56,965 nucleotides of DNA from a virus (Duplodnaviria; Caudoviricetes): positions 1 through 56,965 of the IMG/VR virus record IMGVR_UViG_3300015200_000003; one strand, given 5' to 3'. The translations under genes and the position numbers were made by a program. Shown here one piece after another: positions 1 through 37,300 of this stretch. A model generated the notes under the pieces. The model saw only the letters and a program-made list of their open reading frames with translations. It was not told the DNA's origin and searched no databases. Every line of letters begins with the position of its first letter. Position 1 is the first letter of the stretch.

Positions 1-1194
1 ATCCCAGGCCATGCCGACGGACCAGGCCGCTTCGTCCCATGCCTCACCCGTTCCTCCCGACATGCCATTCGCAGCCATCCCAGACCAAACCGCGCCGACA
101 GACCCCGCCAGCCCCCTCTCGCCCCATCCGCCCCACACCGACACTCCTCCCCAGACTGGTCCGCTCAGATCCACTCCTGTCCTGCCCATACCGACCGTCC
201 GCTCCACCTCCGACCGCGCCGGAACGACGAGCCAAATCGCCCCACCACGAGCCGCGCTGACAAGCCGGACATCACCTGGCCACCCCGCAACGCACCAGAC
301 CGACAGCCCAAGCCGCAGCGCCTCAAGCCTCACCGCGCCGACGGGCCGTCCCGGACCTGGTCGATCCAGTTCGCACCGACTATCCCGCCCGACCTCACCC
401 TTGCCGGGCCAGCCCACACCGACGCTCCACTCCACCCCCTCCCGCGCCGGGCCAACGGTCCACACCCACCCCAGGCGGCCCTGCCCACGTCACACCGACA
501 TCCCGCCGCGTCCCCTCCCCCGCCGATCCGAGCCGACCAGCCAGGACATGCCCCGCCTCGCCACCCCAGGCCCAGCCCCGATGACAACCCTCCCCATCCC
601 GCGCCCGGCCCAGCCCTTCCGGACCGCACCGACGGTCCTCACAAGCCCGTCCCGCGCCAACCCTGGCCAAGCCGACACCCCGTTCTTGGCCTGGTCGTAC
701 CGGTCCCGCCCGCACCGACTACCCAGACCGCGCCGGGCCAACCCCACCCGGGCCGACAAAACAAACCAGACCGAACCACACCGTGCCGCCACGACGAGCC
801 GCGCCAGGCCCCTACGGCTCATACCGCACCAGGCCGACACCCCCATCCTCGCCCGGCCTCGTCTCCCCGAGCCGCACCAGTTCGACAGGCCAAACCCAGA
901 CGGCCCACTGCCTGCCAGCCCGAACCAGGCCGACGAGCCGAACCTTGTCTCCCCTTCCCAGCCCAGGCCGACCGTCCACCCCCAGCCCGGCCCGTCCAGC
1001 CGACATCCCTCGCCTCGCCTGGTCATACCCGACCAGCCTGACAAACCAGCCCGTCTCCCAACAATTCATGCCAGCCTGACGGTCCTTGCCGTCCCTGACC
1101 ATTCCGCCCCAGCCTGACGGACCTAGCCGCTCCTGGCCGGGCCACCCCAGGCCAGCCTGACCGCCCTAGCCCGCCCCGGCCAAGCCCGTGTGAC
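1..1194. repeat. Array of (NNNCC)n-GAC units, read as GTC-(GGNNN)n on the minus strand; putative non-coding guide-RNA array; left end truncated
   Basis: Parsed by hand into 29 complete units: 19-61, 62-99, 100-142, 143-195, 196-228, 229-261, 262-304, 305-342, 343-380, 381-423, 424-456, 457-499, 500-537, 538-585, 586-633, 634-676, 677-719, 720-757, 758-795, 796-838, 839-886, 887-934, 935-972, 973-1004, 1005-1042, 1043-1080, 1081-1118, 1119-1161, 1162-1194. Lengths are 33/38/43/48/53 nt, with one 32. Example 62-99: atgcc attcg cagcc atccc agacc aaacc gcgcc gac. Confidence is for the repeat; its function is inferred. Confidence 0.92.
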
Positions 1195-1241
1195 ATCCCT
1201 GACCCGCCCACCCGGAACCTGACCCCTCTGAGGAGCGACCG

Positions 1242-1799
1242 ATGCCCGAACAGCCCTACATCTTTACCCTGACCCGCGAGGCCGCCGCCGTGATGGACGC
1301 CCTGGCGAAGGAGCGCGGCGACAACTGGCGCAAGCGCAAGGTCGCTAGCCACAAGATCGATGTCGCCCGCACTGACTACGAGATCGATAGGATTGGGGCC
1401 TATGGCGAGTATGGCGTCTGCGCTATGCTGGGGATCCCGTTCAACTGGCGCACCGACCGCGCGGATAACGGCGTCGATGGCGTCCTCTGGGGCAAGACGA
1501 TCCAGATCAAAACCACCGAGCCACCCAAGAGCCTGATGGTGTTTCAGCACGACGACCACTTCCAGACCGACGTGGCGATCCTGGCGCTGGTCATGCTGGA
1601 GACCCGCACGGTGCGGATCGCCGGCTGGATCGGGCGCAAGGACTACCCGAAGGTCCGCAAGCTGGGCGCGCTCGCGGCGGACAAGGTGGAGCGCCCGTTC
1701 GTCCCGACGGAGAAGCTGCGTCCGATCAGTACCCTGTTCCCGATCCTGCATCCTGCGGACGTGGAGGCGTTGGAGGATCCGTTGGAGTTGATCCCGTGA
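1242..1799 (+). CDS. Hypothetical phage protein, possible PD-(D/E)XK nuclease fold
   Basis: RBS AGGAG at 1231-1235; motif GAYGE...NGVDG...IQIKT matches the E...D...(D/E/Q)xK pattern; GC3-rich codons. Confidence 0.6.
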   Translation: MPEQPYIFTLTREAAAVMDALAKERGDNWRKRKVASHKIDVARTDYEIDRIGAYGEYGVCAMLGIPFNWRTDRADNGVDGVLWGKTIQIKTTEPPKSLMVFQHDDHFQTDVAILALVMLETRTVRIAGWIGRKDYPKVRKLGALAADKVERPFVPTEKLRPISTLFPILHPADVEALEDPLELIP

Positions 1800-2284
1800 C
1801 GGAACCGAAGAAGCCGATCAGCTTCACCGCCCATCTCGAAGCGGATCTGTGGGAGGAGCGGGCCGACGCCCGACGGCTGGCCCGCGAGCGGGAGGTCGAG
1901 CAGCGCGAGCGGGTGCAGAAGGCGCTGCGAGCCGACGAGGATGCCAGGAAGCGGGCCTGGATCGAAGCCGGCCATGAAACCCGTCAGCCGCCCGAGTACC
2001 GTGGGCGGGTGTTCGATCACGCGGATCGGGACGGCGTCCACCCAACCGCTTTTCCACCTTTAAGGAATAGTCCCCAGGACAGCCTGAGCGACGAGTTCAT
2101 CGCCTTTCAGGCGTACAACCAGACGACGTTTGCCAGCCACCCCCGGTACTATTGTGTGCGGTGTCAGGCGCGGTACAACGCCAGGGATGGCGGGCTGTGC
2201 GGTCCCTGTATCGCCGCCACCGACGAGGTGGGCCAGATGCGCAAGCGTTTCAGCCGTGAGGTCCAGACGGAGTACCCGCTGTGA
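1796..2284 (+). CDS. Hypothetical protein with a C-terminal CxxC...CxxC zinc finger
   Basis: GTGA overlap with the upstream gene; CVRC...CGPC. Confidence 0.65.
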   Translation: MTEPKKPISFTAHLEADLWEERADARRLAREREVEQRERVQKALRADEDARKRAWIEAGHETRQPPEYRGRVFDHADRDGVHPTAFPPLRNSPQDSLSDEFIAFQAYNQTTFASHPRYYCVRCQARYNARDGGLCGPCIAATDEVGQMRKRFSREVQTEYPL

Positions 2285-3237
2285 AGAGGCCGTCCCCCGA
2301 GGAGCAGCTGGCCGCCGCCAAGGCCCGAGCGGAAGCGGCGGCCACGGCCGAGGCCGCCGCCAGGGCCAAGACACAGGCCGAGATGCTGGATGTGGCCCGC
2401 TGGTCGCGCTGGCAGGATGAGGCGCGCCAGTCTGACCCGCGTGCGCCGTGGATCATCCAGCCGCTTGCGGAGCCGCTGGTGGCTGCCCCGCTGACGGAAG
2501 GGACGCCGCCGTCGGAGTTGGGGATCGTCACCCAGTCGTTGCAGAAGATGAAGCGCGACCTCGAATTCCGTCAGCCGCGACTCCCAGAGGAGTCGTTCGA
2601 GTTCGTGCCAGCCGTGGCCAACACCCCCACCCGCGAGGAGGCGCGGCTGGCGCTGGGGCGGGCGCTGGAGAACGCGGTCACCTCCGGCCTGCTGTCCGAG
2701 GAGCGCGCCCTGGCCATGATCGCGGTCGGGCAGATCAACAACACCCCGTTGACGACGGCGGAGGCGCGCACGCACCTGCGCGCGGCGGTCTCCCAGGCGG
2801 TCGCCGCCGGCGGCTTGCTGATCGCCACGGCGCGCACGATCATGGACTTGCTGGAGGACGCAGTCCCGATCAACGAGGATCCCCCATTGCTGGAGCGGAT
2901 TGCCCTGCTGGAGGATCAGGTCTACCAGGCGCTGCTGATCCGCCCCTGCCACAAGATTGAACACGCCGGGCTGCATCGCTTCCAGGTCATGCCCTGCGCC
3001 ACCCAGTTCTCCTGGCTGGGGCAAGCCCTCTTGAGCGGCCGTGGCCTTGGGCTGCCCCCGAACGGTCTGCCCCGCATGGCCCATCTGCGTGAGGATGGGA
3101 CGCGCGAGGCGTGCTGTGATGATGAGCGGATCGACACCTGGCTGCGCTACGGCCAGACACAGGAGCCACCAGACCGCTATGATGGACGCGGCGAGGAGGA
3201 CGGCCCCGATGCGTCTGACGGTGACGATACGCGTTGA
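2281..3237 (+). CDS. Hypothetical protein
   Basis: GTGA-coupled 318-aa ORF with typical codon bias. Confidence 0.65.
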   Translation: MKRPSPEEQLAAAKARAEAAATAEAAARAKTQAEMLDVARWSRWQDEARQSDPRAPWIIQPLAEPLVAAPLTEGTPPSELGIVTQSLQKMKRDLEFRQPRLPEESFEFVPAVANTPTREEARLALGRALENAVTSGLLSEERALAMIAVGQINNTPLTTAEARTHLRAAVSQAVAAGGLLIATARTIMDLLEDAVPINEDPPLLERIALLEDQVYQALLIRPCHKIEHAGLHRFQVMPCATQFSWLGQALLSGRGLGLPPNGLPRMAHLREDGTREACCDDERIDTWLRYGQTQEPPDRYDGRGEEDGPDASDGDDTR

Positions 3238-6338: not shown

Positions 6339-6776
6339 GTGGCGATCACCGCCAGGCTGTACGGACAGGTCTTCCTCAAAGCCTTTAACAAGGAAATCGA
6401 TATTCTGGACGACGCTATCGCTTGCACCCTGCACACCTCGGGCTACACGCCCGACCAGGACACCCACATCTACGTGTCGTCCCTGAACAGCGAGGTCGCC
6501 GCTGGCGGCGGGTACACCACGGGCGGCCAGAACCTGGCCAACGACACCCTGACCTACACGGCGGGGACCAACACCATCATGTACGACGCCGACGACGTGG
6601 TCTGGTCGGGCAGCATCACGGCGCGGACGGCCGTGCTGTCGGATCGGACGCCAGGCACCGCCGCGACCCAGCCGCTGCTCGTCTACCAGCAGTCGGACGT
6701 GGACATTGTCTCCAACAACGGCGAGTACCGCGTGGCCTGGGCCGCCGCAGGCGTTTTCACTATCGCGGTGGGATGA
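6339..6776 (+). CDS. Minor tail/structural protein
   Basis: RBS GGAGG; LHTSGYTPDQDTH...EV..GGGYTTGG.L motif seen in phage tail modules. Confidence 0.7.
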   Translation: MAITARLYGQVFLKAFNKEIDILDDAIACTLHTSGYTPDQDTHIYVSSLNSEVAAGGGYTTGGQNLANDTLTYTAGTNTIMYDADDVVWSGSITARTAVLSDRTPGTAATQPLLVYQQSDVDIVSNNGEYRVAWAAAGVFTIAVG

Positions 6777-7083: not shown

Positions 7084-7497
7084 GTGGCGAACCTCTGGTA
7101 CCCCAAGTTCAAGGCGGCCTTGCTGAAGAACGCCGTGGGGTACGACCTGAGCAGCGCGGGGACCAACGTGCGGGTCGTCATGATCGACCTGGCCGACTAC
7201 ACCTACAACGCCGCGCATGAGTTCCTGTCGGATGTGCCGTCCGCCGCCCGCGTCAACACGATCACCGCGCTGAACGGCAAGAACGTGACGAACGGCCTGT
7301 TCACCGCCGACAACCCCGCCTTCATCGCGCCGAGCGGGGACCAGTCGGAGGCCCAGATCCTCTACATCAACAGTGGGGCGGACGCCATCAGTCGCCTGAT
7401 CCTCTTCTTCGACACGTTCAGTTCGGGTGCGCCGTACATCCCGTCCGGGATCGACTTTGCCAACCACTGGAACCCGTCGGGCATCGCGCAACTGTAG
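7084..7497 (+). CDS. Structural protein, paralog A
   Basis: MANLWYPKFK...DLADYTY..HEFLSDVP...W..SGIAQL. Confidence 0.75.
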   Translation: MANLWYPKFKAALLKNAVGYDLSSAGTNVRVVMIDLADYTYNAAHEFLSDVPSAARVNTITALNGKNVTNGLFTADNPAFIAPSGDQSEAQILYINSGADAISRLILFFDTFSSGAPYIPSGIDFANHWNPSGIAQL

Positions 7498-7506
7498 GGG
7501 GACCGC

Positions 7507-7920
7507 ATGGCCAACATCTGGTACCCCAAGTTCAAAGATGCGCTGCTGAAAAACGCGGTGGGGGTCAGCCTGGACGGCGGCGCGACCGATATTCGGGTGA
7601 TCCTGGTCGATCTGGCCGACTACACCTACGCCGCCACCCATGAATTCCTCTCAGATGTGCCGTCCGCCGCCCGTGTCAGCGTGACCGCCGCGCTCACCGG
7701 GCGCAGCGTCAGCGACACCGGCCTGTTTGATGCGGCCGACTCGGTGTTCACGGCAGCCACCGGCGATCCGTCGGAGGCGATGATCCTCTATCTCCACACC
7801 GGGACGGAGGCGACCAGTCGGCTCATGCTGTACCTCGACACCAGTCCGGGCCTGCCGATGACGCCGACCGGGGTCGATCTGACCCTGACCTGGTCGGCCT
7901 CGGGCATCGCGCAACTGTGA
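7507..7920 (+). CDS. Structural protein, paralog B (tandem duplicate)
   Basis: Same length (137 aa) and same motifs as 7084-7497. Confidence 0.75.
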   Translation: MANIWYPKFKDALLKNAVGVSLDGGATDIRVILVDLADYTYAATHEFLSDVPSAARVSVTAALTGRSVSDTGLFDAADSVFTAATGDPSEAMILYLHTGTEATSRLMLYLDTSPGLPMTPTGVDLTLTWSASGIAQL

Positions 7921-24342: not shown

Positions 24343-25395
24343 ATGGCAACACGCAACTCCAATTTGCCCAATTGGATGATCGACGCGGCCGGAGCGCCGA
24401 GATCCGGCCGTATCCTGGACGACCCACCCCCCGAGGAGGAGGAGCGACCGATGGCGCTGCCACCACCACCCCCGCCCGATGGCGGCCTGCCGCCGATGCC
24501 CGGTGGTGGTGCCGACCCGATGGCTGCGCTCGCGGGAGCCGCTCCTGGTATCCTGGGTGGTGGGGGTCCACCTCCGCCGCCGCCTGGCCCGAGTTTCATG
24601 CCGCCACCTGACCTGGGTCCGCCCGGCGGCCTACCTCCGCTAGGCGGCCCAGGGATGCCCGGCCCCGGTGTTGGCCCGGGGCCGGGGCTTCCGCCTGGGG
24701 GTGGTCCTCCTCTTCCACCTCCGGGTGGCCCGCCTCCGGGTATTGGTCCGGGTATTCCAGGTATGCCTCCGGGTATTGGTCCGGGTATTCCGCCGCCCGG
24801 CACACCCATGCCGCTGATCCCGCCGACGGGTCCGCTGGCCGACCTGCCACCCCTGATGGAGCAGCGCCCACCCGCGCCGACGGGGCCGACCCCGCCGACC
24901 ATTGGTGTGGCGGGCGGCGGTGCGCCCGGCGCGCAGGCTCCGACCATGAACATCAGCAACTCCGTGGTCAACGTCGGCCAGCAGGATGTGGGAACGCAGG
25001 GCAACCCGGCCGCCCCTGCCTCGGTGCGACCAGGGGGCAGGGAACCATCCCCGCCACCGCCTTCAGCTGGACTCGGTGGTAACCTGTCCGACCTGCTGGG
25101 ACCACCCGAGGGTGTGTCAGATGTGGCACCCGCGCCATCGAGCGCGGCGGCGTTACCACCGTTTGAGCCGATTGCGGGCGCGGGCGCGCCGCCCCCACCA
25201 GGCCCGATGAACCTGCCGTCGGTGGAGGCTCCGCCGATGGAGCCTGCGCCGCTGCCTGAGGCTCCGATGGATCTGCCACCAGAGCCGCCGCTCGATCTTG
25301 GCGCTGCGCCGCTTGACCTGGGACCACCCGCCCTGCCAATGGAGGCTGGTCCGCTTGGCCCGTCCTGGAATTCTGAGGCGGGTGGCTATATCTGA
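24343..25395 (+). CDS. Extremely Pro/Gly-rich protein (350 aa)
   Basis: Open 1 kb frame, TGATG-coupled to the giant gene. Confidence 0.65.
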   Translation: MATRNSNLPNWMIDAAGAPRSGRILDDPPPEEEERPMALPPPPPPDGGLPPMPGGGADPMAALAGAAPGILGGGGPPPPPPGPSFMPPPDLGPPGGLPPLGGPGMPGPGVGPGPGLPPGGGPPLPPPGGPPPGIGPGIPGMPPGIGPGIPPPGTPMPLIPPTGPLADLPPLMEQRPPAPTGPTPPTIGVAGGGAPGAQAPTMNISNSVVNVGQQDVGTQGNPAAPASVRPGGREPSPPPPSAGLGGNLSDLLGPPEGVSDVAPAPSSAAALPPFEPIAGAGAPPPPGPMNLPSVEAPPMEPAPLPEAPMDLPPEPPLDLGAAPLDLGPPALPMEAGPLGPSWNSEAGGYI

Positions 25396-28300
25396 TGGCC
25401 GCCGAGTGGGAGGACTGGGGGTACGAGTACGAGGAGCCGGAGGCCGAGTACTACGACGACGCCTACGCCTACGAGGAGCCGGAGTGGGAGTACAACGACG
25501 ACGAGTACGAGTACGAGTACGACCCGTCGGAACTGTGGGCGGAGAGTGACGAGGACTACGGTGACGGGGGCGGCTACAGCTACGAGCCGCAAGAGTACGC
25601 CGAGTCGGTAGAGGCCGCTTACGCCCCGCTCCCGGAGCCAGAGCCGCTTGCCTATGCCGATCCGTACGCCCAGGCTGCACCTGAGACGGGTGAACTCGCT
25701 GCCACCGGTGACTGGTGGAGCGACCTGTGGAATGACACTGCGGCTACGCCAGCGAAACCCGTCGCCGCCAAGCCAGGCGAGAAGCCACCGATCAGTGATG
25801 ACTGGTGGACGAACCTCTGGAACGAGACCCAGCCAGCCGCCAAGCCAGCCGCGCAGCCAGCCGCCAAGGCCCAGAACCCGAACACCGTCGGCACCATCAC
25901 CACCTGGGCCGACGGCACGCCCATGTCCGAGAAGGAACAGAAGCAGGCCCGCGTCTACCAGATCGCCCTCGAAGAGGGGCTGAATGCAGAAGGTGCGCGG
26001 ACGATGGTCGCGGTCACCGAGACCGAGAACGGCCTGTTCGGCGCGGTGGGCGACACCGAACTGAACCCGCTCGGGTCACGCGGTCCCTACCAGTTCTACG
26101 AGGGCGGGCAGATGCCGGCCTTCCGCGCGTGGCTGAAGAACGAAGGCATCCCCGGCGACCCGAACGTGCTGGTCAACGACGTGGACCTGGCGACCCGATT
26201 CGCTGCGCGGAACTACCTGGGCGAGACGATCAAACGCGGTCAGTCGCAGGGGTTGGCTGGCGCGGACCTGGGGACGTTTACCCAACGGTACGGCCAGGTG
26301 TCGGTCAATCCCGAGAAGACCGGCCGCAACTACACCGCGCTATTCGGCGCAGGTGACCGGTACGCGGACGCCTTGCGGGTGGCCGTGCCGGACCCGGCCT
26401 CGCGTCAGACCGCCAACCAGAAGATCCCGCCAGGCCACTACGACGGCGATGGCCATGACCACGGGGTGGCCACCCCCTACACCCAACAGCAGACCGACAA
26501 GGCCGGCAACGTCTACACGGTCGCGTTCGACTACGACGCGCCGTACGACAACCCGTTCAACCCGGCGATCCCCCGCCACCGTGGGGTCGATCTCCAGGTG
26601 ACCGGGGTGCCGAACGGCGGCATGGACACGCCGTACACGGCGTTCAGAAGTGGCAAGGTCGCCCACATCACCAATGACCCGCACGGTGGGATCGGGATCA
26701 TTGTCGATACCGGCGATCCGAACGCCAGGTATGACCGCTACTTCCACAACAACGCCGTCTCGGTGAAGGTGGGCGACACCGTCACGGCTGGCGAGACCAA
26801 CCTGGGTCTGATCGGTGAGAGCGGGACGAAGGGCTTCCCGCACCTGCACTACGAGGTCTCCCAGGGCATCAACGGCGACCCGTCCGGGCAGACGATTGAC
26901 CCGCGCCCGTACATGAGCCGCCCGGTCGCTACCCCGGCCACCCGCGAGCAGGCGCGCACGCAGATCGCCGGCACCCAGTACCGCCCGGAGACGATCCCTG
27001 ACTGGTGGGCGGACTACTTTGGGCCGCAGGCCGCGCCCCCCACGCAAGGGCGTCCGCTTGTCGCCGCCGCCGCACCGGCCGCCGCACCAGCAGCGGCCCC
27101 CGTCCCACCCCCGCGCCAGATCGCCCTGAACACGCCGTACACCTCGGGCAAGCGCACCCAGACCGCTGGGGTGGTGATCCACGCGACCCACGGCGGGGCA
27201 GCCACGCCGCAGGAGGAGTTCGACTGGACCCTGCGCCACTTCGGGAACAACGCGGACCAGGTGTCCGCGAACGCCGTGATCGGCGCGGATGGGACGGTGG
27301 CCCTGGTTGGGGACTGGGACGCGACCACCCACCACGCGGGCGAGAACAACAAAACGATGTTCGGCATCGAACTGGCCCGCGCCAGGCCGGGTGAGGCGTA
27401 CACGGACGCGCAATACGCGAGCCTGGGCTGGCTGCTGGGCGAGGTCAGTAAGCGGTACAACCTGCCGCTGACCCGCCAGACCGTGGTCGGCCACGAGGAA
27501 CTGGAGCAGGGCAAGCGGTCGAACAAGATCGACCCTGGTCCCGAGTTCAGCTTCGAGCGGGCGATCACGGCTGCGGCTCCTCGTCCCGCCGCTCCCGCCC
27601 CGTCTACCCCCGCGCCTGCCCCAACGCAGGGTGCGGCGCGTCCAGCGCCACGAGGTGACGCTGACGTGGGACCACGCACCGGGGCTGGGGCAGCCGCCGC
27701 ACCAGCGCAACAGCAAGCGCTGCCAGCGGAGACCCAGACGGCGCTGACCGAGTGGCAGCGCTTCCGCCGCTCACGGGGGGAGTCCGAGACAGACATCGGA
27801 GCCTTCCGCGCCCACCTGGGACGGCTAGGCGCACCGGACCCGTGGGCGGCCGACGAGCAGGCGCGGGCTGCGGTGGAGCAACAGAACGCCGAGAGCCGCT
27901 CGACGTTCCTGGCCCAGCTTCCAGGACCGACCCAGCAGGCGTACATCGAGTGGGAAGCGATGCGGCGCTCGCGTGGCGAGGATGTCTCTGACATCCCGGC
28001 CTTTCGCGCGCACCTGGATCGACTGGGTGCGCCGAACCCGTGGACCCAACAGGAACAAGAGCGGGCGCGCGCCGAGACTGAGCGCGCGCAGATCGCGACC
28101 CGCAACGCCGAGATCGCGCGGCAGAACGCCGAAATCACGCGGCGGAACGCGGCGGTCCAGAGCGAGATTGATCGTCAGAACGCGGCGATCACCAGCATGA
28201 ACACCCACTATACCGAGCAGTTCGCCGCCGCCAAGCGTGAAGAGGCCGCGCTCGCGGAGTGGCAGCAGGCGACCCGTCTGCGTGCGGGCGACATGATGGA

Positions 28301-31300
28301 GCCAGATCCTGGCCCGCGCCCGTCAACCCCGAACCTGGATTGGCTCCAGCAGCGACAGGCCGCCGATCAGGACACCGGCCCGCGCGAGCAGACAGCTGTT
28401 CAGCGAGCGCCGCTGATCGCGCACACCGAGCAGCTGATCGCCAATCCTGACGCAGGGCCGCGCGAGGCGACTCGCGCCCAGAACCTCCAGCTTGCCGAGA
28501 ATCTGCGCCTTGCCGCTCCGCCACCACCACCACCGACGATTGCGCCGACGATTCCGGAACCCAGGGGCTGGGTGGACGACGCCAAGGACTGGATGCGGGA
28601 GAACCTGCCGCAGGATGGGTCACCGACCCCGGTGGGCCAGGTCGATCCGTACTGGCGCGACTGGTATCTGAGAAGTGGCGTTTCACCTGAAGAGGCGGAT
28701 CGTCTGGCGACCGTCACCGGCGAGACGCCGATCCAGGCGGGTGGACGGCTGGTGCGGGGTGCGGGCGAGGCCATCGCACCGTACGTCCCACCGGATGAGC
28801 CGAGGTACGGCCCTGGCGGCATCTACTCGGTCCCATCGGGCCAGGTCGATCCCGTCTGGCGCGACTGGTATCTGAGAAGTGGCGTTTCACCCGAGGAGGC
28901 GGATCGCCTGGCGACCGTGCCGACCTACACGACCGAGGTCTCGAAGGACCGCGAGGTCGTCATCCCAGCCCAGCCTGAGCGGTTCAGCGAGCAAGACTAC
29001 AACTGGATGATCGGAGCCGGTATCTCCGAGGAGGAGGCGCGGCGTCGGGCCACGTCCCCCGCCACGCCTGAACGGCGGACCCGCGTCAGTTACGGTGCGC
29101 CCGAGCAGATCGTGGACCCCAACCTGTCGGCTATCGACATCACCCAGCACGCTCTGGACCGTGCCAAGACTGGCGTCCAGACCGCGCTTCTGGGGGCCGC
29201 CACCGACATCGCTCAGCGAGTCGGGCGGCAGGACTGGGCGGACCAATTCCTGACTCAGCGTCAGGATGTCGAGGATGCTGCCATCGCCCGTGGTGCCTAC
29301 ATCACGGCGGCTGAGGGAGTACTCGACCCCCACACCCTGATCAACCCGACCGGACTCTACGAGTCGCTGATCGAGAACGCGCCTTCGACCGTTGCGAACC
29401 TCGCATCGCTCGCATTGGGTGGGTCGGGAATTCTGGCGAACGCGGCGCGTCTGCCGCGACTGGCCTCCGCGCTCTACACGACTGGTCGGGTGGCGGGGTA
29501 CGGTGGCCTTGCCCTTGGCGTGGTGCAGCAGGCTGCCGACACGCGCCGCGAGTTGGATGCTGAGGTGGCCAGCGGGCGCATCTCCCCCCAGATGGCGGAT
29601 CTCGCGGCGGTGTTCACGGGGTCGCTGGAAGGGGTCACCGAGCAGATCTTCCCTGGCGCTGATCGTGAGATCCGCCGTGGGTTGAACCACGCGGTGGCCG
29701 AGAATGTCATCCAGGCTGCCCGCCGACGAGGTGTCCATCTGGTTGGCGACCTGGGTCGTGAAATGGGTACCGAGGCTGCCGAGGAGATGCTCTCACAGAT
29801 CGGCCAGGAGGGAGTGACCCAGGCGCTCCAACAGGAGAAGCCGGGTCTGCTGGAAGCGCTCAAGAACGTCGTTGAGGCCGGGTTGGTCGGTGGTGCTTCT
29901 GGTGGTGGCCTGTCTCTCGCCAGCAACGCCGTTCAGGCTGGTGGCGCTGCCCTGGCTGAGCGTCGTCAGCAAGCGGCCTACGAGGCGTTTGTGGCAACCG
30001 CTGGTGACCCAGGCTTCCAGCTTGGGACACGGAACTGGGAGCAGGGGGCGAGAGCCGCGCAGCTTCCAGACTTCGTGCCGCTCGCGGACGCCCCGGCCCC
30101 GTTCGACATCCTGGCCGATCACGGTCTGCAGATGCAGCCGTCGAAGGCGGACTCTAGCCAGTTCATCGTGCGGCAGGTCTTGCCCGCCGAGCCAGGCGGG
30201 CAGCCAGGGGTGCGCACGTTCACCTTGAACCTGACGCCGCAGGGTACCTACCTGGCGCGCGAGTACAACGGCGAGCAGCCGGTGACCGCCGCCGCCTGGG
30301 CTGCGCCCAACCCAGCCACGGGCGCGGTCGGTGGGACGCCTGCCGATGTCGAGTTGGCGTCGAATCGCTTCCAGGCCGCGACCGCCACCCTGGCCGCGCG
30401 CGGGCTGTTCAGTGATGAGACCTCTCAGCAGTTAGGCGAGTCGTACCGCGCGCACATCCAGGGAGCGCTTGACCGCGCGAATGCAGCGCCATCCGCCACC
30501 GGTCAGGCGGGTGTGGCCCCACGGGCGTACCACATGCCTGAGAACCAGGCGGGCTACGAGGCGCGACGGGCTGCCGCGTACCAGCGGCAGGTTGAGGCGG
30601 CGCAGGCGCGCGGTGAGCCAATCCCACCCCCACCTGCGCACGAGGATGTGATCCCGCCAGAGAAGTGGGTCGATGTCGGTGTGGCTGCGGGGACGAACGT
30701 TCCCTTCCTGGCTGGTGCGCATCTGCCGGGTGATCTGGTCACGGCGATGCGTGACGACCCCGTCAACGCCGGCATCCTGGCGATGTCGGCGGGCGCGATG
30801 GCGTACGGCGACCAGTTTGCCCGCGAGGCCGGGGTGTTGCCACCTGGCGGCGAACGGCAGATGGTGGGGTCCGTCGCCCCAGGCGTCAACGCCTACAACG
30901 ACAATCGTGGCGCATACGACCCCAGGACTGGCACCAGCGCCCCTGGTCAGTACCACGTCAACTCGGGCCAGATCCTTATGTCGGCGCTGTATCGGCTGGC
31001 GAAGCGGCCGGTCCAACTCCCGAACGGGCAGACGACCACGCTACAGGCGGTGGCGGAGGCGAAGGGCGACACGATCTGGGACTTGCGCCGCAGTCGGTTG
31101 TTCCCGAGTTACGTGGCGCGGGTGATCGTGGAGCAGGCGGCGCACGAGTCACCGCACGATCTGGTCAAGGACCACAGTGCGATCCACGGGAACCTAACCG
31201 CCGGGTTCATGAACACGATGGTCGCTCACTACCAGCAAGTCCTACCGCTCGTCCAGCAGTGGCACGCATCGGGCGCACTGGACACCACCCTGCGGACCTA

Positions 31301-34300
31301 TGGCCGCCTCTTACAGGCGTCATCCGAGAATCCGACGTGGCAGAGGGAGGGGAACAACCTTGTTGCCGCACTCGAACAGCAACAGACTGGAAACCGAGGC
31401 GATGCAGGAGGTGCTGGTGTCGATGCTGGTGCGCTCAGCCGAGGAGGGCAACCAGGAGAAAGCGCAGTTCTACCTGCGGTCGGCGGAGCAGGCCGGAATG
31501 GATCCGGAGCAGGCGTTGCAGGCGGCGCAGCAACAACTCCCGGACAACGCACTGCTGGCGTCCCTGATCTCGGCCCGCCCAGCACCGACGGACGACCCAT
31601 CGCCGGCGTCCCCGATCTTGGACCCCCGCCTGCCCCAGGATCTCCGGCCGCTGGGACCGCTGCCGCCGGAGTAAGGGGAGCCAACCTGCCCAGGCTGCCG
31701 CGCGGGCGGCGGGGCGGTGTGGTCACGCCAGGGCGAACCCCGACGCCGCAGCAAAGCTGGAAGCAGGCCCAGAACCAGGCTGTCCGTCAGGATGCAGCCC
31801 TGAGGCAGGCCAGGCAAGCGCGGATTCCCATCGATGCGGGAGTCGCGGCGGCGCAGAGCATCACGGGGATGTTTGCTCGCCCAGACCAGATCGCGGCGAT
31901 GGGTGCGGATGGCCGTCCGCTGGCTGGACCCTCAGCGATGGTCAGCCAGGAAGTCGCGGCCTCGCTCCCGATCAAGGTCCGCCCGCTCGCCTCGTACCCA
32001 GAGGGATTCATGAAGGCGGCGGCGAACTCCTGGAAGATGGACAACGAACATACCCAGAATCCGCCGTACTTCGTTCCAGGGGTCGGGATGGTCTTCCCTG
32101 ACGTGTACCGTCAGGCGAACAAGGTGGACACCGACCGTCGCGCTCCACGCCAGATCGTCTACTACACCCTTTGGGTGGGCTATGACCCGGGCTACGGCGG
32201 CGGGCTGGCAAAGAACGATGTCGGGATTACCACCAAGGAGAAGGGTAAGGGGTCCAAGATCTTTGGTGAGCATGTGATGCGGAACCCGCTGGTGTACCAC
32301 GGCGGGGTGCTGCTCTCCGATCACATCAACCAGTTGCTCGACATCGTGGGTGAGTCACGCGACTACACCAACGCCGTGATCATCCCGATGTTCCAGGACG
32401 CCGCGACCTCGACGCCGACGGTCGAAAGCGTGACCTCGCTGATGACGCAGATGGGGTACGGGGATCCGACCCAGGCTCCGCTGCTGCTCGCGGCTTCTAA
32501 TGGCAAGTGGGGCTTCGACGCAGGCGGGCTGGCCGACCTGATCATCACCTCGATGCTGGGCTATGAGGGACGCGCCCGTGGATATGACGGGGTCATCACC
32601 TGGGCCGATCAGGGCGACGAGTACGGCGGTCGCTTCAAGCGAGCGTACCCGGTGGTCACCGAGGGTGCCAGCTTCATCGAGTGGACCAACCCTGGTACAG
32701 ACAACCAGGGGATCGCGCAGCTTGAACCGGGCATGTTCCAGAACCTGCCGACGCCGGTGATGGAGGCGCTCCTCGAATCCCACCGCCTCAAGAACGATCC
32801 GGAGGTCAACTCAGACCGCGTCCAAGCGTTGCTCGCAGAGGCGGACGCGGTGGTGCACGCGCACCCCATACGGCCGCACCTCAAGGGGTACTCCGTCCGG
32901 GACGGGCGGCTGATGTATCGCAACCGCGACGGGCTGCACGATACGGGGTACGCCGTCGAGGGCAATCAGCTGGTGTACCAGGGCAAGGTCCGCGAGGGGT
33001 ACGAGGTTCGCAACGGCCAGCTGTACTACACCGGCGGCGTCTCCTCGACCGAGGGGGGCGTCCCAGCGCCGCCGCCAACAGAACGTCTCACCTATGGCGA
33101 GTTCTTTGAGCAGTACCGTCGTCTGACGGCTATGCGCCAGACGATTGAGGGGTTCCCGCTGAATCATGTCCGTCGTGGAACAGCGCTGCAGGCCATTGTG
33201 GATGAGACGCGTGCATTGGTTGATGCGAACCCTGACCTGATGAAGCGGCTGCGCGAACAGGTGCGCCAGAAGAAACTCCAGAGGCAGCAGCAAGGGGGCC
33301 AACTCCAAGCGCCGTCCGCGATGGCAGCGGAGCGTCCGCCGAACCCCGACTTCCCGCACGGCCTCTACCCCGACGAGATGGTCACCCCGACCGCCCGCGA
33401 GGCGATGGCCTCCAAGGTCGCGCCGCCGCCGCGCCTGGACGAGAACGGGGATCCTGTCCCCGGCACGGGTGGCTGGGCTGGTCCGGGCGAACTGTCGCGG
33501 ATCGCCTACGAAGACCTGCCGAACCGCGAGATCTACGAGCAGGCTGGCTGGGTCATCCTCGATAACGGCTTCATCCCGCCGGGCATGGCAGCGGCGGCGG
33601 CGGCGTCGGAGGACGCCGAGGCCAGCGACGTAGTCAAGCCGAGCCGCAAGGAGTTGACGGCCCAAGCGACGGCGGATCGGTGGGCGGTCTGGCGACAGGT
33701 CATGCCGAACCTGCGCCTACCGCCGGGGATGCAGAACCTCGAAATGGAGGCGTTCCTCGACTACCTGGCGTCGTTCCGCTCGGGGATCGTGGACGGCACC
33801 ACCAAGCCCGAGGTTGGCGTGCTGGGGTCGCTGCTAGCGCTGGGATCGGTCAAGCGCTCCGGGCGGTCGTACGTCAAGACCCTGAACGCCCTGTCCGCCA
33901 CCATGGGACGGGAGCGCGCCTACGAACTGGTGATGCGGACGCTGCCCGACATCTACCCGCAGGGGCCGCCGTCGCCGCAGGAGAAGGGCCAGCTGATGCG
34001 GCCCGAAATCCTCTGGGCGATGTTGGCGGGCGACACCACCGACCCGGTCATGATGAAGATGCTGGTCGGCATCGCGCGCCCGGACAGCTTCCGCACCGAG
34101 GAGGAGCGGAGCGCTGCTATCGAGGCGGGGGTCAACCTGCTCTATCAGCGGATCGGCGCGCGTGGTCCTGACAACGAGCCGATCCTGGGGCGGGATGAGA
34201 CCCGCAGCAGTGCGTACCCGCAGGGCAAGCCGATCATGCCGGCTGTTCATGGGCGGGGCGAGGATCCCCAGAAGATCCTGGGAGCCTCCAGGACGCGCGT

Positions 34301-37300
34301 CAACCCCGAGACTGGGGTGGCCGAGATCCAGAAGGCCGGCACACCCTGGAGTCGCTCTGAGCCTGTTCGCTGGAACGAGTTGGTGCAGGCGGCGCAGGCT
34401 GTTGAGGGGGTCGCTGATCCGGACTCGCCGTACGCGGGGATGGAGCCAGGTGGCGAGGAGATGCGGCAGGCGATCATCAATCGCTTGATCGACGCCCACG
34501 CCGCTGGGATCGGGCCGGTCAAGTCGCGGTTCGCCGCCAGTATGACCGCGTTCCCAGACTACGCCACGCTCGACACACGGATGCTGCGTGACGTGTTCGG
34601 CCTCTCCCCGAAGCTGGTGATCCCGACCGTCGAGGAGTACGAGTACCTCTCGGCCAAGCTGGCTTCCATCGGGTCCGACAGCAAGTATCTGTACGGCCAC
34701 CAGTGGCTGCCGTGGGAGTACCTGACCGGCGAGAAGACCACCTACACGGCCCTGATCGGGGTGTACCAGCGGGTCAACGCCTACCTGCAGAACGCCGAGG
34801 CTCGAGCGGCCGAGGAGGGCGTCCCGCTGGCGGATGTCCTGGAGGAGACCAGCCTGGCCGAGCAGCGGCGGCTGGTCAGCTACGCCAAGCCGGAGGACAC
34901 GACCGCGAGGATCGGGTTGGCGTTCCGCCCAGCGGAGGTTGACCAGGACGCCGAGGGTCACGAGGCGATCATCCAGGCGCTGGAAGCTGGCACGGCCGGG
35001 GTCGGAGCGATCAAGACGGCGTTCCCGCAGCTGTTCAACCTGCTGGACGACGCCGGCCTGGAGATCGTAGACAAGATCGGAATTGGCCTCGGCGGCTGGA
35101 AGCAGCAGAAGGACGGGACGTACTACCTGGACCGCAACTTCAACCTCCAGGTGACCGGTCCGAAGGCGTCGGTTCGCTGGTTCTCTGCCGCCATGCTCCA
35201 GGCGCTGCCCGAAGAGAAGGCGGTGATGCTGGTCTACGAGGGACCAGGATCCGTCAAGCAGGATCACTGGGGCGGCCTGACCGTTACGGGCATGACCCGC
35301 GAACACTTGACCGCGTTCACCGCCGAACTGTCAGACGTGTTCGGGGACGGCTGGACCATCACCGCCAAAGCGCGGACGGCCAAGGGCTACCCGGGGGTGA
35401 AAGACCCGACCACCGGCAAGCGAGGTGCGCGGGACGACCGCGAGATCGAGCGAGCCGGCAAGGGTGGCGAGGTCTTCGACGTGCAGGTGCTGGCCGGCGC
35501 GGTCAAGGCGTACGGCGGTAACGGGATCGCGCTGCGCAAGCAAGTATCGAACGTCATGCGAGGTCTTAGCAGAAGAGGCTATACTCCTGAGAGATCTGAG
35601 ACCGTACGGGCTGAACTGGAGTTCATGGACCGTGCAGAAGCAAGAGAGGTCGTCCGTGGAGGACCAGCCGGAGCAATTGCCTACGAAGGACCAACGCCTG
35701 TTCGACTTCAGCGGATGGCGCGACGAACCCGACCTGACGCCCGAAGAAGAGGCGGCGTACCTCCAGGAGATCGAGGAGGCGACCGCGAGGCGGGACAAGG
35801 AAGGGTACCGAGCGACGATCTATCTGGGCGGGAAGAACTTCTAGCCGGCCCGTCAGCGATGGTGGCGGAGCCGATTGCCCGCACCCTCGCTGGCCCGGTC
35901 ACCATCCCCGAGGATCCGTCCTTCCGTGAGGCGGTTGCCAACACACCCGGCGCGGCCTTGACCGACGACGGGTTGGCGGTGGACTTCATCCGCTATCAGG
36001 TGCCAGAGCAGGAGGCCGCAGAGTCGGTCCGCTCGGGCGTCTTCACGATGGCAGCGGGTGTGCCATCCCGTGATCGCACCTACAAGGTCCAGCCGGGGAC
36101 GGTAGGGCGGTACCACGGCGGCACCCAGCGGGTGGCTGGGCGGACCCTGTTCAAGCGCCCGCTGGTCGTCAAAGCCGGTCAGGGTGGCGCGCTGGCCGGA
36201 AATGCCTTCAACCGCATGTACGCGGACGAGCATGGCGACTGGCAGACCGAGGCGCGGCGTGAGCAACGGGCGGCCAAGGCGGCCCTGGACGCTCACCAGG
36301 CGACCGCCGAAGCGGATGCCGCGCAGCATAACCGCGCTGACGGGTACACGCAGTCGGAGGGCTTCTACGAGCGACTGCGGACGCTCCAGTGGCAGGAGCG
36401 CGCCGCTGGCGGCCGTCCGTACGACCGGCTTCTGACGGAGATCGACCTCGCCCTGATTGAAGGCGGCACGGATCCAGACCAGCGATCCGAGTCCCTGGCC
36501 CCGGTCCTAGAGAAGTGGGGAGTGGACGACGGGAGCGCCTACGAGAGGGCCGAGAACATCGCCTACAACGCCAACCGTGGTAACCAGTCGCGCTTCGCCG
36601 CCTCGGAACTGGTGACGGCGTACGTGCTGCGACGGAACGGCTACGACGGGGCGGTCGCCTACTCGGGTAGCTACGGCAACGCGGCACAACTGGGCGAGTT
36701 GTTCGATGTCAGGGCGATCACCTACCCGACCGAGTCTGGCGATGTAACGCTGCACCCGGACTTCCAGCCGTCAGAGATGGGGCCGTCCGCCATGGCGGCC
36801 CAGGGGCCGTCACACCCCGCCCTGATCCGTGCGCAGGCGCGCGCCGTCGAGCGTGGCGTTGCCCGCATTCGCGACGACGCCGCCGAGTACGTGCAGCTGG
36901 CGGGCATCCGTCCGTCGATCCCGCTGACGGCGTACGGTCGGCCGGACCCCGACCTGGGTCAGCGGATCGCGGAGTTCTACGACACCGCGCCCGATAGCCC
37001 GGACGACCCCCAGGTTCGGGCTGCGTACGACGCCCTGAACGACGAGGTCAACGACCAGTACCGGTTCCTGGTCGATAAGGGCGTGACGTTCGTCCCGTAC
37101 TACCTGGAGGGGCCGGCTGGCGACGGGGCCGACTTCAACGGGTACGCCTCCAGCCGCGACATGGTCCGTGATCTGGGCGAGAACAACCGCCTGTACGTGT
37201 TCGCGGACGCGCTCGATCACCCGCTGATGTCGCCGCCAGGCATCCCGTACGACCAGTCCGACAACTGGAAGTTCCGCGCGGTCCACGACTACTTCGGCCA

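What the first reader, a model, noticed from the sequence alone, without database searches (positions are those of the whole stretch)
1..1194. Array of 29+ units of (NNNCC)n-GAC: candidate programmable gapped-code guide-RNA system
Seen: a 5-nt lattice with CC usually at positions 4-5 and variable bases at positions 1-3, reset every 6-10 pentamers by a 3-nt GAC spacer (once AAC). 28 of 29 units are exactly 5n+3 nt. No two units are the same, so simple slippage does not explain it, and a period of 5 does not fit codon structure. The junction is usually RCCGAC (GTCGGY on minus). Established: Cas7 filaments bind RNA with a fixed nucleotide period, and CRISPR arrays are processed at a short conserved motif. 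From memory, and to be verified: recently reported viral VIPR arrays use alternating GGY/NN motifs with a Cas7-like protein; the minus strand here reads GG-N-NN, a relaxed version with its own delimiter. Inference: each unit is a 33-53 nt guide in which the CC/GG positions bind protein subunits and the variable bases spell a non-contiguous target, perhaps against competing phages or host genes. No Cas7/RAMP gene is visible in the window; it would be expected left of position 1.
Basis: partly seen in the sequence, partly recalled or inferred. Interest (0 to 1): 0.96.

Follow-up and report, generated by a model that had tools for sequence, protein, structure and literature searches.

The report
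Tail-less VIPR guide-RNA array in phage
The left end of this soil phage contig is a long array of about 31 short guide units of the recently described VIPR system, in which a Cas7-like protein reads RNA in steps of five bases to find DNA by a gapped code, so it is a good new example of a known system rather than a new kind.

Summary
Window 1-1232 parses into 31 units of (NNNCC)6-10 closed by a 3-nt GAC; the fit to this unit grammar scores 335 against 78 +/- 16 in simulations. The first unit is cut by the contig end.

The same array grammar occurs in 70 of 119 viral stretches found by pattern. It lies directly beside a ~240-aa protein family (Fam1) homologous to phage SUSP1's Vipr (hhalign E 3.9e-6).

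Natural guides in these arrays match other elements' vipr genes perfectly only when pentamer bases 1-2 are read and one target base is skipped: 30 perfect hits, about 0.2 expected. The skipped base is the codon's third position in 55 of 55 hits.

Not shown for the window itself:
- The vipr gene: the contig starts inside the array, and none lies in the 57 kb.
- Expression or processing of the units.
- Any target.

An open point is the strand. The C-rich strand is the vipr-sense strand in 46 of 48 protein-ascertained loci, and arrays sit inside co-directional operons. Published vrRNAs are G-based.

Verdict: new member of a known kind, possibly the preprint's 'staggered arrays'.

The parts
1..1232 (+). 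Array of 31 guide units, (NNNCC)6-10 + GAC. It runs off the contig's left end. The strand is given as the C-rich, gene-sense strand; the transcribed guide strand is not proven.
143..195 (+). Longest unit (10 pentamers + GAC, 53 nt). It was used for exact gapped-pattern scans, which found no target.
424..456 (+). The only complete internal unit whose delimiter is AAC instead of GAC.
973..1004 (+). Irregular unit of 32 nt: one extra base breaks the lattice, and there is an internal GTC.
1005..1042 (+). Unit shared with relative L122 (97% identical) and, as a variant (84%), with L121.
1119..1161 (+). Unit shared with relative L122 (98% identical). Its neighbours 1043-1118 and 1162-1194 are not shared.
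1195..1232 (+). Terminal unit ending in GAG. It is conserved in L121 (92%) and L122 (89%) and runs straight into the ribosome-binding site of the next gene.
1038..1065 (+). The only sigma-70-like promoter match in 1-2500, on the + strand inside the array. It is a consensus match only.
1242..1799 (+). First gene after the array (185 aa). It is a DUF5843 / phrog_18407-like phage protein, not a Vipr homologue, and starts 10 nt after the array with its own GAGGAG ribosome-binding site.

Best explanation
Window 1-1232 is the right-hand part of a VIPR-type guide array belonging to a soil phage that probably infects Actinomycetes.

Each unit of 6-10 pentamers is one guide. A Vipr protein, a minimal Cas7-like RAMP, is inferred to bind one pentamer per protomer. 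It would hide the conserved CC (GG on the other strand) together with the base next to it, and present the other two bases.

The presented dinucleotides pair with DNA while every third target base is skipped, so a 33-53 nt unit specifies 12-20 target bases. The 3-nt GAC shifts the 5-nt register, so it ends one filament and starts the next. This would let many guides lie head to tail without the roughly 60-nt structured tail of the SUSP1 type.

Binding is expected to silence genes of competing phages. In related arrays those targets include other elements' vipr genes.

What is shown:
- the array grammar;
- its linkage to Vipr homologues in related loci;
- the reading rule, from natural guide-target pairs;
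- cassette-like unit turnover.

What is inferred:
- that this phage has or borrows a Vipr;
- that the units are expressed and separated;
- which strand is the guide. I put the C-rich, gene-sense strand at about 0.6.
For: 1. Grammar.

2. Same grammar elsewhere.
- 70 of these hold an array. Among parsed units, GAC was the delimiter 290 times, with CGAC next at 23.
- GAC was part of the search pattern, so this count is biased upward.

3. Linked protein.
- All-against-all BLAST of flanking ORFs gives one family (Fam1, about 225-260 aa) in 33 of the 70 array-bearing loci. It lies directly beside the array (median gap 25 nt) and is on the C-rich strand in 32 of 33.
- In the reverse test, 78 loci were fetched by Fam1 protein alone. 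48 have an array within 1.5 kb: 46 read CC on the vipr-sense strand, 1 has both orientations and 1 reads GG. The other 30 have none by a strict criterion.
- Of 12 genome loci, 9 have a CC array upstream of vipr. They come from Streptomyces, Nocardiopsis, Streptosporangium, Streptacidiphilus and others.

4. Fam1 is a Vipr homologue.
- Profile-profile comparison with five SUSP1-type Viprs gives probability 87%, E 3.9e-6, over 131 columns ending at the C-terminal glycine-rich loop.
- There are weak hits to the same loop of Csm4, Cas5, Cas7 and Cas6.

5. Reading rule.
- 577 unique guides were scanned against 98 unique vipr genes. Reading bases 1-2 with a 1-nt skip gave 18 perfect hits for n=7, 9 for n=8 and 3 for n>=9. 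Shuffled guides gave 0.0, 0.2 and 0.0.
- The two other rules that finished gave 0 perfect hits for n>=7.
- Against 3.67 Mb of all loci, the same rule gave 12 perfect hits against 1 in the control. Eight other rules stayed at control level (first run).
- The 30 perfect hits come from 3 independent guides aimed at three conserved Vipr motifs. The skipped base is codon position 3 in 55 of 55 hits with at most one mismatch.
- Two of the three guides mismatch their own vipr gene, at 14/16 and 14/18.

6. Turnover.
- Two relatives share the downstream gene at 93% and 81% amino-acid identity.
- They share only 2 of 5 and 3 of 11 units with the window. The remaining units are unrelated.
Against: - No Vipr homologue lies in the 56,965-base contig. 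HMMs (sequence profiles) built from the two alignments, A1 (Fam1) and A2 (SUSP1-type Viprs), gave best E-values of 4.1 and 0.99 over 751 six-frame pieces.
- The left flank is not available, because the genome held is the window only.
- None of 29 window units has a gapped match better than its own shuffles in 3.67 Mb of related phage DNA or in the window itself.
- Exact gapped patterns of three long units found 0 matches in viral contigs, and one found 0 in genome contigs.
- The published defining feature 'invariable 3' tail' is absent.
- 30 of 78 Fam1 loci show no array by my strict lattice criterion.
- GAC was part of the search pattern, so its frequency in that set is inflated.
Confidence: 0.85

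Rival explanations
1. Same VIPR system, but the guide is the G-rich minus strand, 5'-GUC(GG-N-NN)n. It would be transcribed antisense to vipr and to the window's genes. This is what the published GGY/NN geometry and the preprint's 'NNNGG' and 'staggered array' classes would predict.
For: - The derived rule reads bases 1-2 of NNNCC. On the minus strand that is GG, one unread base, then NN, which is exactly the published 5'-GGY-NN-3' order. On the plus strand the order is CC-NN-N.
- In four type II loci (SUSP1, MakoManhole, LittleE, Trine) the guide strand is G-based.
- Read on the minus strand, GUCGG is itself a pentamer, and successive units overlap by 1-2 nt. This fits the legend of the preprint's fig. 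S18. That last point is my inference; the figure was not seen.
Against: - The C-rich strand is the vipr-sense strand in 46 of 48 and 32 of 33 loci.
- Arrays are wedged between co-directional genes with gaps only large enough for a ribosome-binding site, in the window and in L005, L008, L019, L068, L102 and L207. That leaves no room for an antisense promoter outside coding sequence.
- Where an intrinsic terminator adjoins an array, it sits at the 3' end of the C-rich reading. This holds in L077, L014, L018 and in L174, whose array is inverted. L058 is a counter-example for both readings.
- No minus-strand promoter match occurs in window 1-2500.
- The two SUSP1 G-loop residues that contact the guanines (D177 and W178, paper section read) align to S-S in the Fam1 member of the hhalign output. 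In alignment A1 those two columns hold small or polar residues and never D-W, while the following Arg is invariant.
Confidence: 0.35
2. A 'solo' array: this phage carries guides but no vipr gene, and borrows Vipr from a co-infecting phage or a resident prophage.
For: - No Vipr homologue lies in 57 kb.
- Solo vrRNA loci in VIPR-null phages and satellites are reported in 10.64898/2026.10.15.759431 (passages read).
- Here the gene after the array is an unrelated DUF5843-like gene.
Against: - The contig begins inside the array, and public contigs continue 1220 and 268 nt further left.
- In 18 of the 48 protein-ascertained loci with an array, the array lies only downstream of vipr. In several pattern-found loci vipr ends about 25 nt before the array. 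A vipr gene just left of position 1 is therefore the commoner expectation.
Confidence: 0.2
3. A DNA-level element, not a guide array. It could be a set of protein-binding sites, a replication or packaging region, or i-motif / G-quadruplex-forming DNA at a genome end.
For: It lies at a contig end. Its CC/GG period of 5 bp is close to half a helical turn. No transcript has been shown.
Against: - This does not explain the hypervariable bases, the 3-nt register resets, or the constant linkage to a RAMP homologue.
- It does not explain the perfect gapped matches of related units to coding sequences in codon phase.
- Contigs of other runs continue beyond position 1, so this is not a genome terminus.
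Confidence: 0.04
4. A proline-rich protein encoded by the open frame 11-1117.
For: Frames 1 and 2 stay open for 346 and 371 codons.
Against: - A sequence that is 50% C and 11% T has few stop codons in any frame.
- The period is 5, not 3.
- Units of 38, 43 and 53 nt are gained, lost and replaced whole between relatives, which would shift the frame.
- Translations of the array frames were not searched against any library.
Confidence: 0.01

Closest known systems
VIPR type II (Escherichia phage SUSP1; Vipr + vap1 + vrRNAs), bioRxiv 10.64898/2026.04.26.720920 and 10.64898/2026.04.26.720927
   Same: - Both are phage-borne.
- Both use a 5-nt repeat with a fixed dinucleotide and two read bases.
- Both use a 1-nt skip on the target that falls on codon third positions.
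- Both carry guides aimed at rival elements, including other vipr genes.
- The partner protein is homologous (E 3.9e-6).
   Different: - Units have 6-10 repeats, against 9-16 in SUSP1.
- There is no structured 3' tail, only a 3-nt delimiter.
- More than 31 guides lie head to tail, against 4 in SUSP1.
- The third fixed base is relaxed from Y to N.
- The fixed dinucleotide reads CC on the vipr-sense strand, whereas type II reads GG on that strand.
- The guanine-contacting D-W of the glycine-rich loop is replaced.
- The accessory family Fam2 is unrelated to vap1 (E 0.09).
'Staggered vrRNA arrays' and 'NNNGG' repeat classes of the same preprint (fig. S18 and the methods on type classification)
   Same: The legend describes vrRNAs that follow each other without spacer, with the end of one marking the start of the next and a 1-nt overlap. 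The window's array read on the minus strand fits this. NNNGG repeats are listed as an alternative class.
   Different: I could not see the figure, the type tables or the supplements. Identity with that class is therefore my inference. The text I read names no 3-nt GAC/GUC delimiter and no arrays antisense to vipr.
Non-canonical period-5 VIPR-like clusters (bioRxiv 10.64898/2026.10.21.760802)
   Same: These are period-5 arrays beside Vipr-like folds whose fixed motifs differ from GGY: 21 of 99 clusters.
   Different: The motifs named in the passages I read are GAC/NN, CAC/NN, WGT/NN and TGH/NN, each repeated about 10 times. No CC- or GG-N-based array with a register reset is named.
CRISPR arrays with a Cas7 backbone (class 1)
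   Same: Both have a RAMP filament on a guide with a fixed nucleotide period, an array of many guides, and cassette-like turnover between relatives.
   Different: There are no direct repeats of 20-40 nt and no contiguous spacers. No cas genes were seen among the 20 left-hand ORFs scanned. The reading is gapped, and nothing is known about how new units are acquired.

Membership tests
VIPR system | Tandem 5-nt repeats with a fixed di- or trinucleotide and hypervariable remaining bases | tested here: met
   Of 222 pentamers, 176 have CC at positions 4-5, and positions 1-3 are variable. The parse score lies about 16 SD above simulations.
VIPR system | A vipr gene (minimal RAMP with a glycine-rich loop) next to the repeats | tested here: inconclusive
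   In the window: none in 57 kb, and the contig starts inside the array.
In related loci: met. Fam1 lies beside arrays of the same grammar and is homologous to SUSP1-type Vipr.
VIPR system | RAMP fold of the partner protein (RRM core, thumb, G-loop) | not tested
Only sequence-profile evidence is available, plus an ESM Atlas lead to a RAMP cluster at score 0.75, which is a lead only.
VIPR system | Non-contiguous target code: two bases read per repeat, one target base skipped | tested here: met
   Met for the array family: 30 perfect hits in vipr genes against about 0.2 expected. Of the rules run to completion, no other gave a perfect hit for guides of 7 or more pentamers; two rules were left unrun by the crash but stayed at control level. 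The skipped base is the wobble position in 55 of 55 hits.
For the window's own 29 units no target was found.
VIPR system | Invariable structured 3' tail after the repeat tract (types characterised so far) | tested here: not met
   Units are separated by 3 nt only, and no Rfam family matches the window. The preprint itself lists tail-less 'staggered' arrays, so this feature does not define all types.
VIPR system | vrRNAs are expressed, cut to unit size and bound by Vipr | not testable with these tools
   No RNA run holds the stretch. The 24 listed holders are DNA contigs or carry only a small share of its sampled words.
VIPR system | Carried by phages or prophages | tested here: met
   The window encodes a large terminase subunit, head and tail proteins, and a RuvC-like resolvase. 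Related loci are viral contigs and Actinomycete genomes.
CRISPR array | Direct repeats of about 23-50 nt alternating with contiguous spacers | tested here: not met
   TRF finds no such repeat. The only shared element is the 3-nt delimiter.

The most novel reading that the evidence does not exclude
In this Actinomycete-phage clade of VIPR the guide is the C-rich strand, 5'-(NN-N-CC)n-GAC-3', made as part of the vipr operon transcript. If so, a Vipr lineage has swapped its anchor from GG to CC, having lost the Asp-Trp pair of the glycine-rich loop that holds the guanines in SUSP1 Vipr. It has also replaced the long structured tail by a 3-nt register shift that alone sets guide boundaries. That would show that the RAMP filament's anchor and punctuation are evolvable. 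It would also allow dozens of guides in about 1 kb without processing signals.
Probability: 0.45. Interest if true: 0.8.

Novelty: new member of a known kind. Interest (0 to 1): 0.45.

Why it matters
VIPR was described only in 2026 and has been tested experimentally in a few systems (types II, III and V, per the text I read).

This window and its roughly 120 relatives form a large, uncultured-phage and Actinomycete-prophage branch with three useful properties:
- Very compact, tail-less arrays of more than 31 guides per kb.
- A reading rule that can be read straight from natural anti-vipr guides.
- Cultured carriers in which it can be tested, namely Nocardiopsis tropica JCM 10877 and Streptacidiphilus carbonis NBRC 100919 (record titles).

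The unresolved strand question is directly testable. If the C-rich strand is the guide, the known chemistry of RAMP-RNA recognition would widen. If the G-rich strand is the guide, it would be a case of guides always encoded antisense within an operon.

Tried and rejected
**Left flank**
- The genome held is only the window.
- Relatives of the first and last genes are absent from viral contigs.
- Two metagenome relatives (L121, L122) also break inside the array.
- Laying contigs of four runs showed records reaching 1220 and 268 nt beyond position 1, but the tool gives no sequence there.

**Expression**
- No RNA holder is listed.

**Targets of the window's units**
- No unit beat its own shuffles in 3.67 Mb.
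- Exact gapped patterns of units 143-195, 586-633 and 839-886 gave 0 hits in viral contigs.
- The pattern of unit 143-195 gave 0 hits in genome contigs.
- Exact matching only was possible, so targets at 80-95% match would be missed.

**Finding the reading rule**
- A first seed-and-extend search over 16 rules showed nothing, because short guides match by chance.
- Per-guide composition over-dispersion gave no clear signal for which bases are read.

**Guide strand**
- Mismatch types in one-mismatch hits showed no G:U wobble pattern that could tell the guide strand.
- A home-made terminator scan of 56 downstream and 63 upstream flanks was weak and ambiguous: 4 against 6, and 4 against 11. Only the strongest cases are used in this report.

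**Protein annotation**
- Candidate proteins 1796-2284 and 2281-3237 have no PDB relatives.
- Pfam and PHROGs gave no RAMP among the first 20 ORFs.
- Fam2 has no Pfam family and is not related to type II vap.

**RNA families**
- Rfam has no match on the array.

- Supplements of the papers were closed, and figures are not held. Fig. S16-S18 and data S4 of 10.64898/2026.04.26.720920 may already show this array type.

**Papers: what I saw**
- 10.64898/2026.04.26.720920: outline, sections 4, 18 and 20, and found passages.
- 10.64898/2026.04.26.720927: outline and section 5.
- 10.64898/2026.10.21.760802 and 10.64898/2026.10.15.759431: search listing and found passages only.
- The statement that a CC-anchored or GAC-delimited array is not named in print rests on two searches and on the passages. 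It does not rest on the figures or supplements.
Full report
**1. The observation**

- The first 1232 bases of the window are 50% C on the + strand, against 33% for the whole window. C autocorrelation peaks at lags 5, 10 and 15.
- A dynamic-programming parse (a best-scoring cut into tokens) was run. It cuts the stretch into 31 units.
- The first unit is truncated by the contig end, and one (973-1004) is off by a base. The other 29 are exactly 5n+3 nt with n = 6-10.
- 29 of 31 units end in GAC, one in AAC, and the last in GAG.
- 176 of 222 pentamers carry CC at positions 4-5.
- The parse score is 335, against 77.8 +/- 16.3 in 300 first-order Markov simulations.
- There is no second such array in the window.

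**2. What is in print**

- VIPR is real: Vipr is a minimal RAMP encoded mostly by phages. Its vrRNAs hold 9-16 YNNGG repeats followed by an invariable tail. One protomer binds each repeat, GGY is flipped out, and NN pairs with DNA while every third target base is skipped.
- Two later preprints report non-canonical period-5 arrays, solo vrRNAs, and guides against vipr genes.
- I read text only. Figures and supplements were not available.

**3. The window's surroundings**

- The genome held is this one contig.
- All plausible genes lie on the + strand. The last ORF runs off the right end.
- The gene content is that of a tailed phage: a large terminase subunit, head and fibre-like proteins, a RuvC-like resolvase, and a 6515-codon ORF.
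- Neither the Fam1 profile nor a SUSP1-type Vipr profile finds anything in the six frames.
- The DNA is held by soil and leaf-litter runs of 21 studies. No holder is on record as RNA. Contigs of two runs continue 1220 and 268 nt left of position 1, but their letters are not given.

**4. Related arrays and their partner**

70 of them hold an array by a strict lattice criterion.
- Clustering of flanking ORFs gave two families:
  - Fam1, about 225-260 aa, in 33 loci. It lies either just upstream of the array (median gap 25 nt) or just downstream.
  - Fam2, about 171-185 aa, in 19 loci, upstream of the array in 'Fam2-array-Fam1' loci.
- Fam1 ends in a glycine-rich loop. Its profile matches a profile of five SUSP1-type Viprs over 131 columns (probability 87%, E 3.9e-6). 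It also hits the same loop of Csm4, Cas5, Cas7 and Cas6 weakly.
- The reverse test holds. Of 78 further loci fetched by Fam1 protein alone, 48 have an array within 1.5 kb.
- Of 12 loci in genomes, nearly all Actinomycetes by record title, 9 have an array.
- Fam2 has no Pfam family and is unrelated to the type II accessory protein.

**5. The reading rule**

- I parsed 577 unique guides from all arrays, masked the arrays, and scanned the remaining DNA under different choices of read bases and skip lengths. Guides with shuffled pentamer order served as controls.
- Only 'bases 1-2 of NNNCC, skip one' stands out:
  - 3 perfect hits against 0 in the first set.
  - 12 against 1 in the larger set. Eight other rules stayed at control level.
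  - Against 98 unique vipr genes: 18, 9 and 3 perfect hits for guides of 7, 8 and 9 or more pentamers, against 0.0, 0.2 and 0.0 in controls. Guides of 6 pentamers gave 1 perfect hit against 1.4 in controls, so the excess begins at 7.
- All 30 perfect hits come from three independent guides:
  - One from L077/L177 matches the sense strand at the codons of the glycine-rich loop.
  - One from L059/L142 matches the antisense strand of an N-terminal motif.
  - One from L184 matches the antisense strand of a central motif.
- In 55 of 55 hits with at most one mismatch, the skipped base is the codon's third position.
- Two of these guides mismatch their own element's vipr gene (14/16 and 14/18). The L077 guide matches its own gene 14/14, 56 nt upstream of itself.
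- This reproduces, for this array type, the published 1-nt skip rule and the published finding that some guides attack other VIPR systems.

**6. The window's own guides**

- None of 29 units has a match better than its shuffles in the 3.67 Mb at hand, the window included.
- Exact gapped patterns of the three longest clean units found nothing in viral contigs, and one found nothing in genome contigs.
- Only exact matching was possible, so this says little.
- The two close relatives keep the neighbouring gene (93% and 81% amino-acid identity). They share only 2 of 5 and 3 of 11 units with the window. The shared units are 84-98% identical, and the others sit at the roughly 60% that the lattice alone gives.
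- Units therefore turn over as cassettes.

**7. Which strand is the guide?**

For the G-rich strand:
- The read bases sit, on that strand, in the published order GG, one unread base, NN.
- In four type II loci the guide strand is G-based and co-directional with vipr.

For the C-rich strand:
- It is the vipr-sense strand in 46 of 48 and 32 of 33 loci.
- Arrays sit between co-directional genes with only a ribosome-binding site on either side, in the window and in at least six loci. A C-rich transcript must therefore exist if the downstream gene is expressed from upstream.
- Clear intrinsic terminators adjoining arrays lie at the 3' end of the C-rich reading in L077, L014 and L018.
- The same holds in L174, where the array is inverted relative to vipr and the terminator still lies at that end.
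- L058 fits neither reading.
- The Asp-Trp pair that holds the two guanines in SUSP1 Vipr aligns to small or polar residues in Fam1, while the next Arg is invariant.

I put the C-rich strand at about 0.6. This is inference, not a result.

**8. Comparison and verdict**

- The array works like, and by the tests I could run belongs to, VIPR.
- The defining features met are the pentamer grammar, phage carriage, the homologous partner in related loci, and the gapped code.
- Not met is the structured tail, which the preprint itself does not require of all types.
- Untested are the RAMP fold, expression, and the presence of vipr in this phage.
- Read on the minus strand, the array fits the legend of the preprint's 'staggered arrays'. 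I therefore file it as a new member of a known kind rather than a new variant. The strand and anchor question is the part that could still surprise.

Noticed in passing
window 25395-44942 (+): A single open reading frame of 6515 codons, following the structural genes. This is very large for a contig of this size (about 57 kb). It was not searched against any library.
   Followed up: no
window 6339-6776, 7084-7497, 7507-7920 (+): Three paralogous genes of PHROG family 644 (unknown function) lie in a row. This is the only part of the first 8 kb with DNA similarity to known phages (Rhodococcus, Tsukamurella).
   Followed up: partly
L077 7546-7580 and 7490-7510: The first unit of this array is a perfect 14/14 gapped match to the glycine-rich-loop codons of its own vipr gene, 56 nt upstream. 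It also matches 18 of 98 other unique vipr genes perfectly. This could be autoregulation, or a broad anti-vipr guide that does not spare its own element.
   Followed up: partly
L174 2042-2933: One of the two Fam1 loci among the 48 that carry an array inverted relative to vipr (L158 has both orientations). A 16-bp bidirectional terminator separates the vipr operon from the array.
   Followed up: partly
L123 1350-1500 and 2590-2960; L124 2640-3020: In the type II VIPR loci of Gordonia phage MakoManhole and Mycobacterium phage LittleE, the tails after the GGYNN tracts contain a GGTTCGA-type stretch in a GC-rich stem. By my reading of the letters it resembles a tRNA T-arm. ARAGORN and Rfam call no tRNA there.
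   Followed up: partly
L005, L019, L038, L047, L056, L071, L093, L103, L107, L116 and others: Fam2 is a conserved protein of about 175 aa, without a Pfam family, that sits directly upstream of the array in 'Fam2-array-vipr' operons. It is a candidate accessory (vap-like) gene and is unrelated to the type II vap.
   Followed up: partly
window 1-1232, L121 1-175, L122 1-410: All three contigs of this phage lineage break inside the array, and the Logan contigs of four runs are fragmented there. This suggests the arrays are systematically lost or split in short-read assemblies.
   Followed up: no
L214 (record title: Burkholderiaceae MAG): This is the one Fam1 locus in a genome bin not labelled Actinomycetes. 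It may be a binning error or a wider host range.
   Followed up: no
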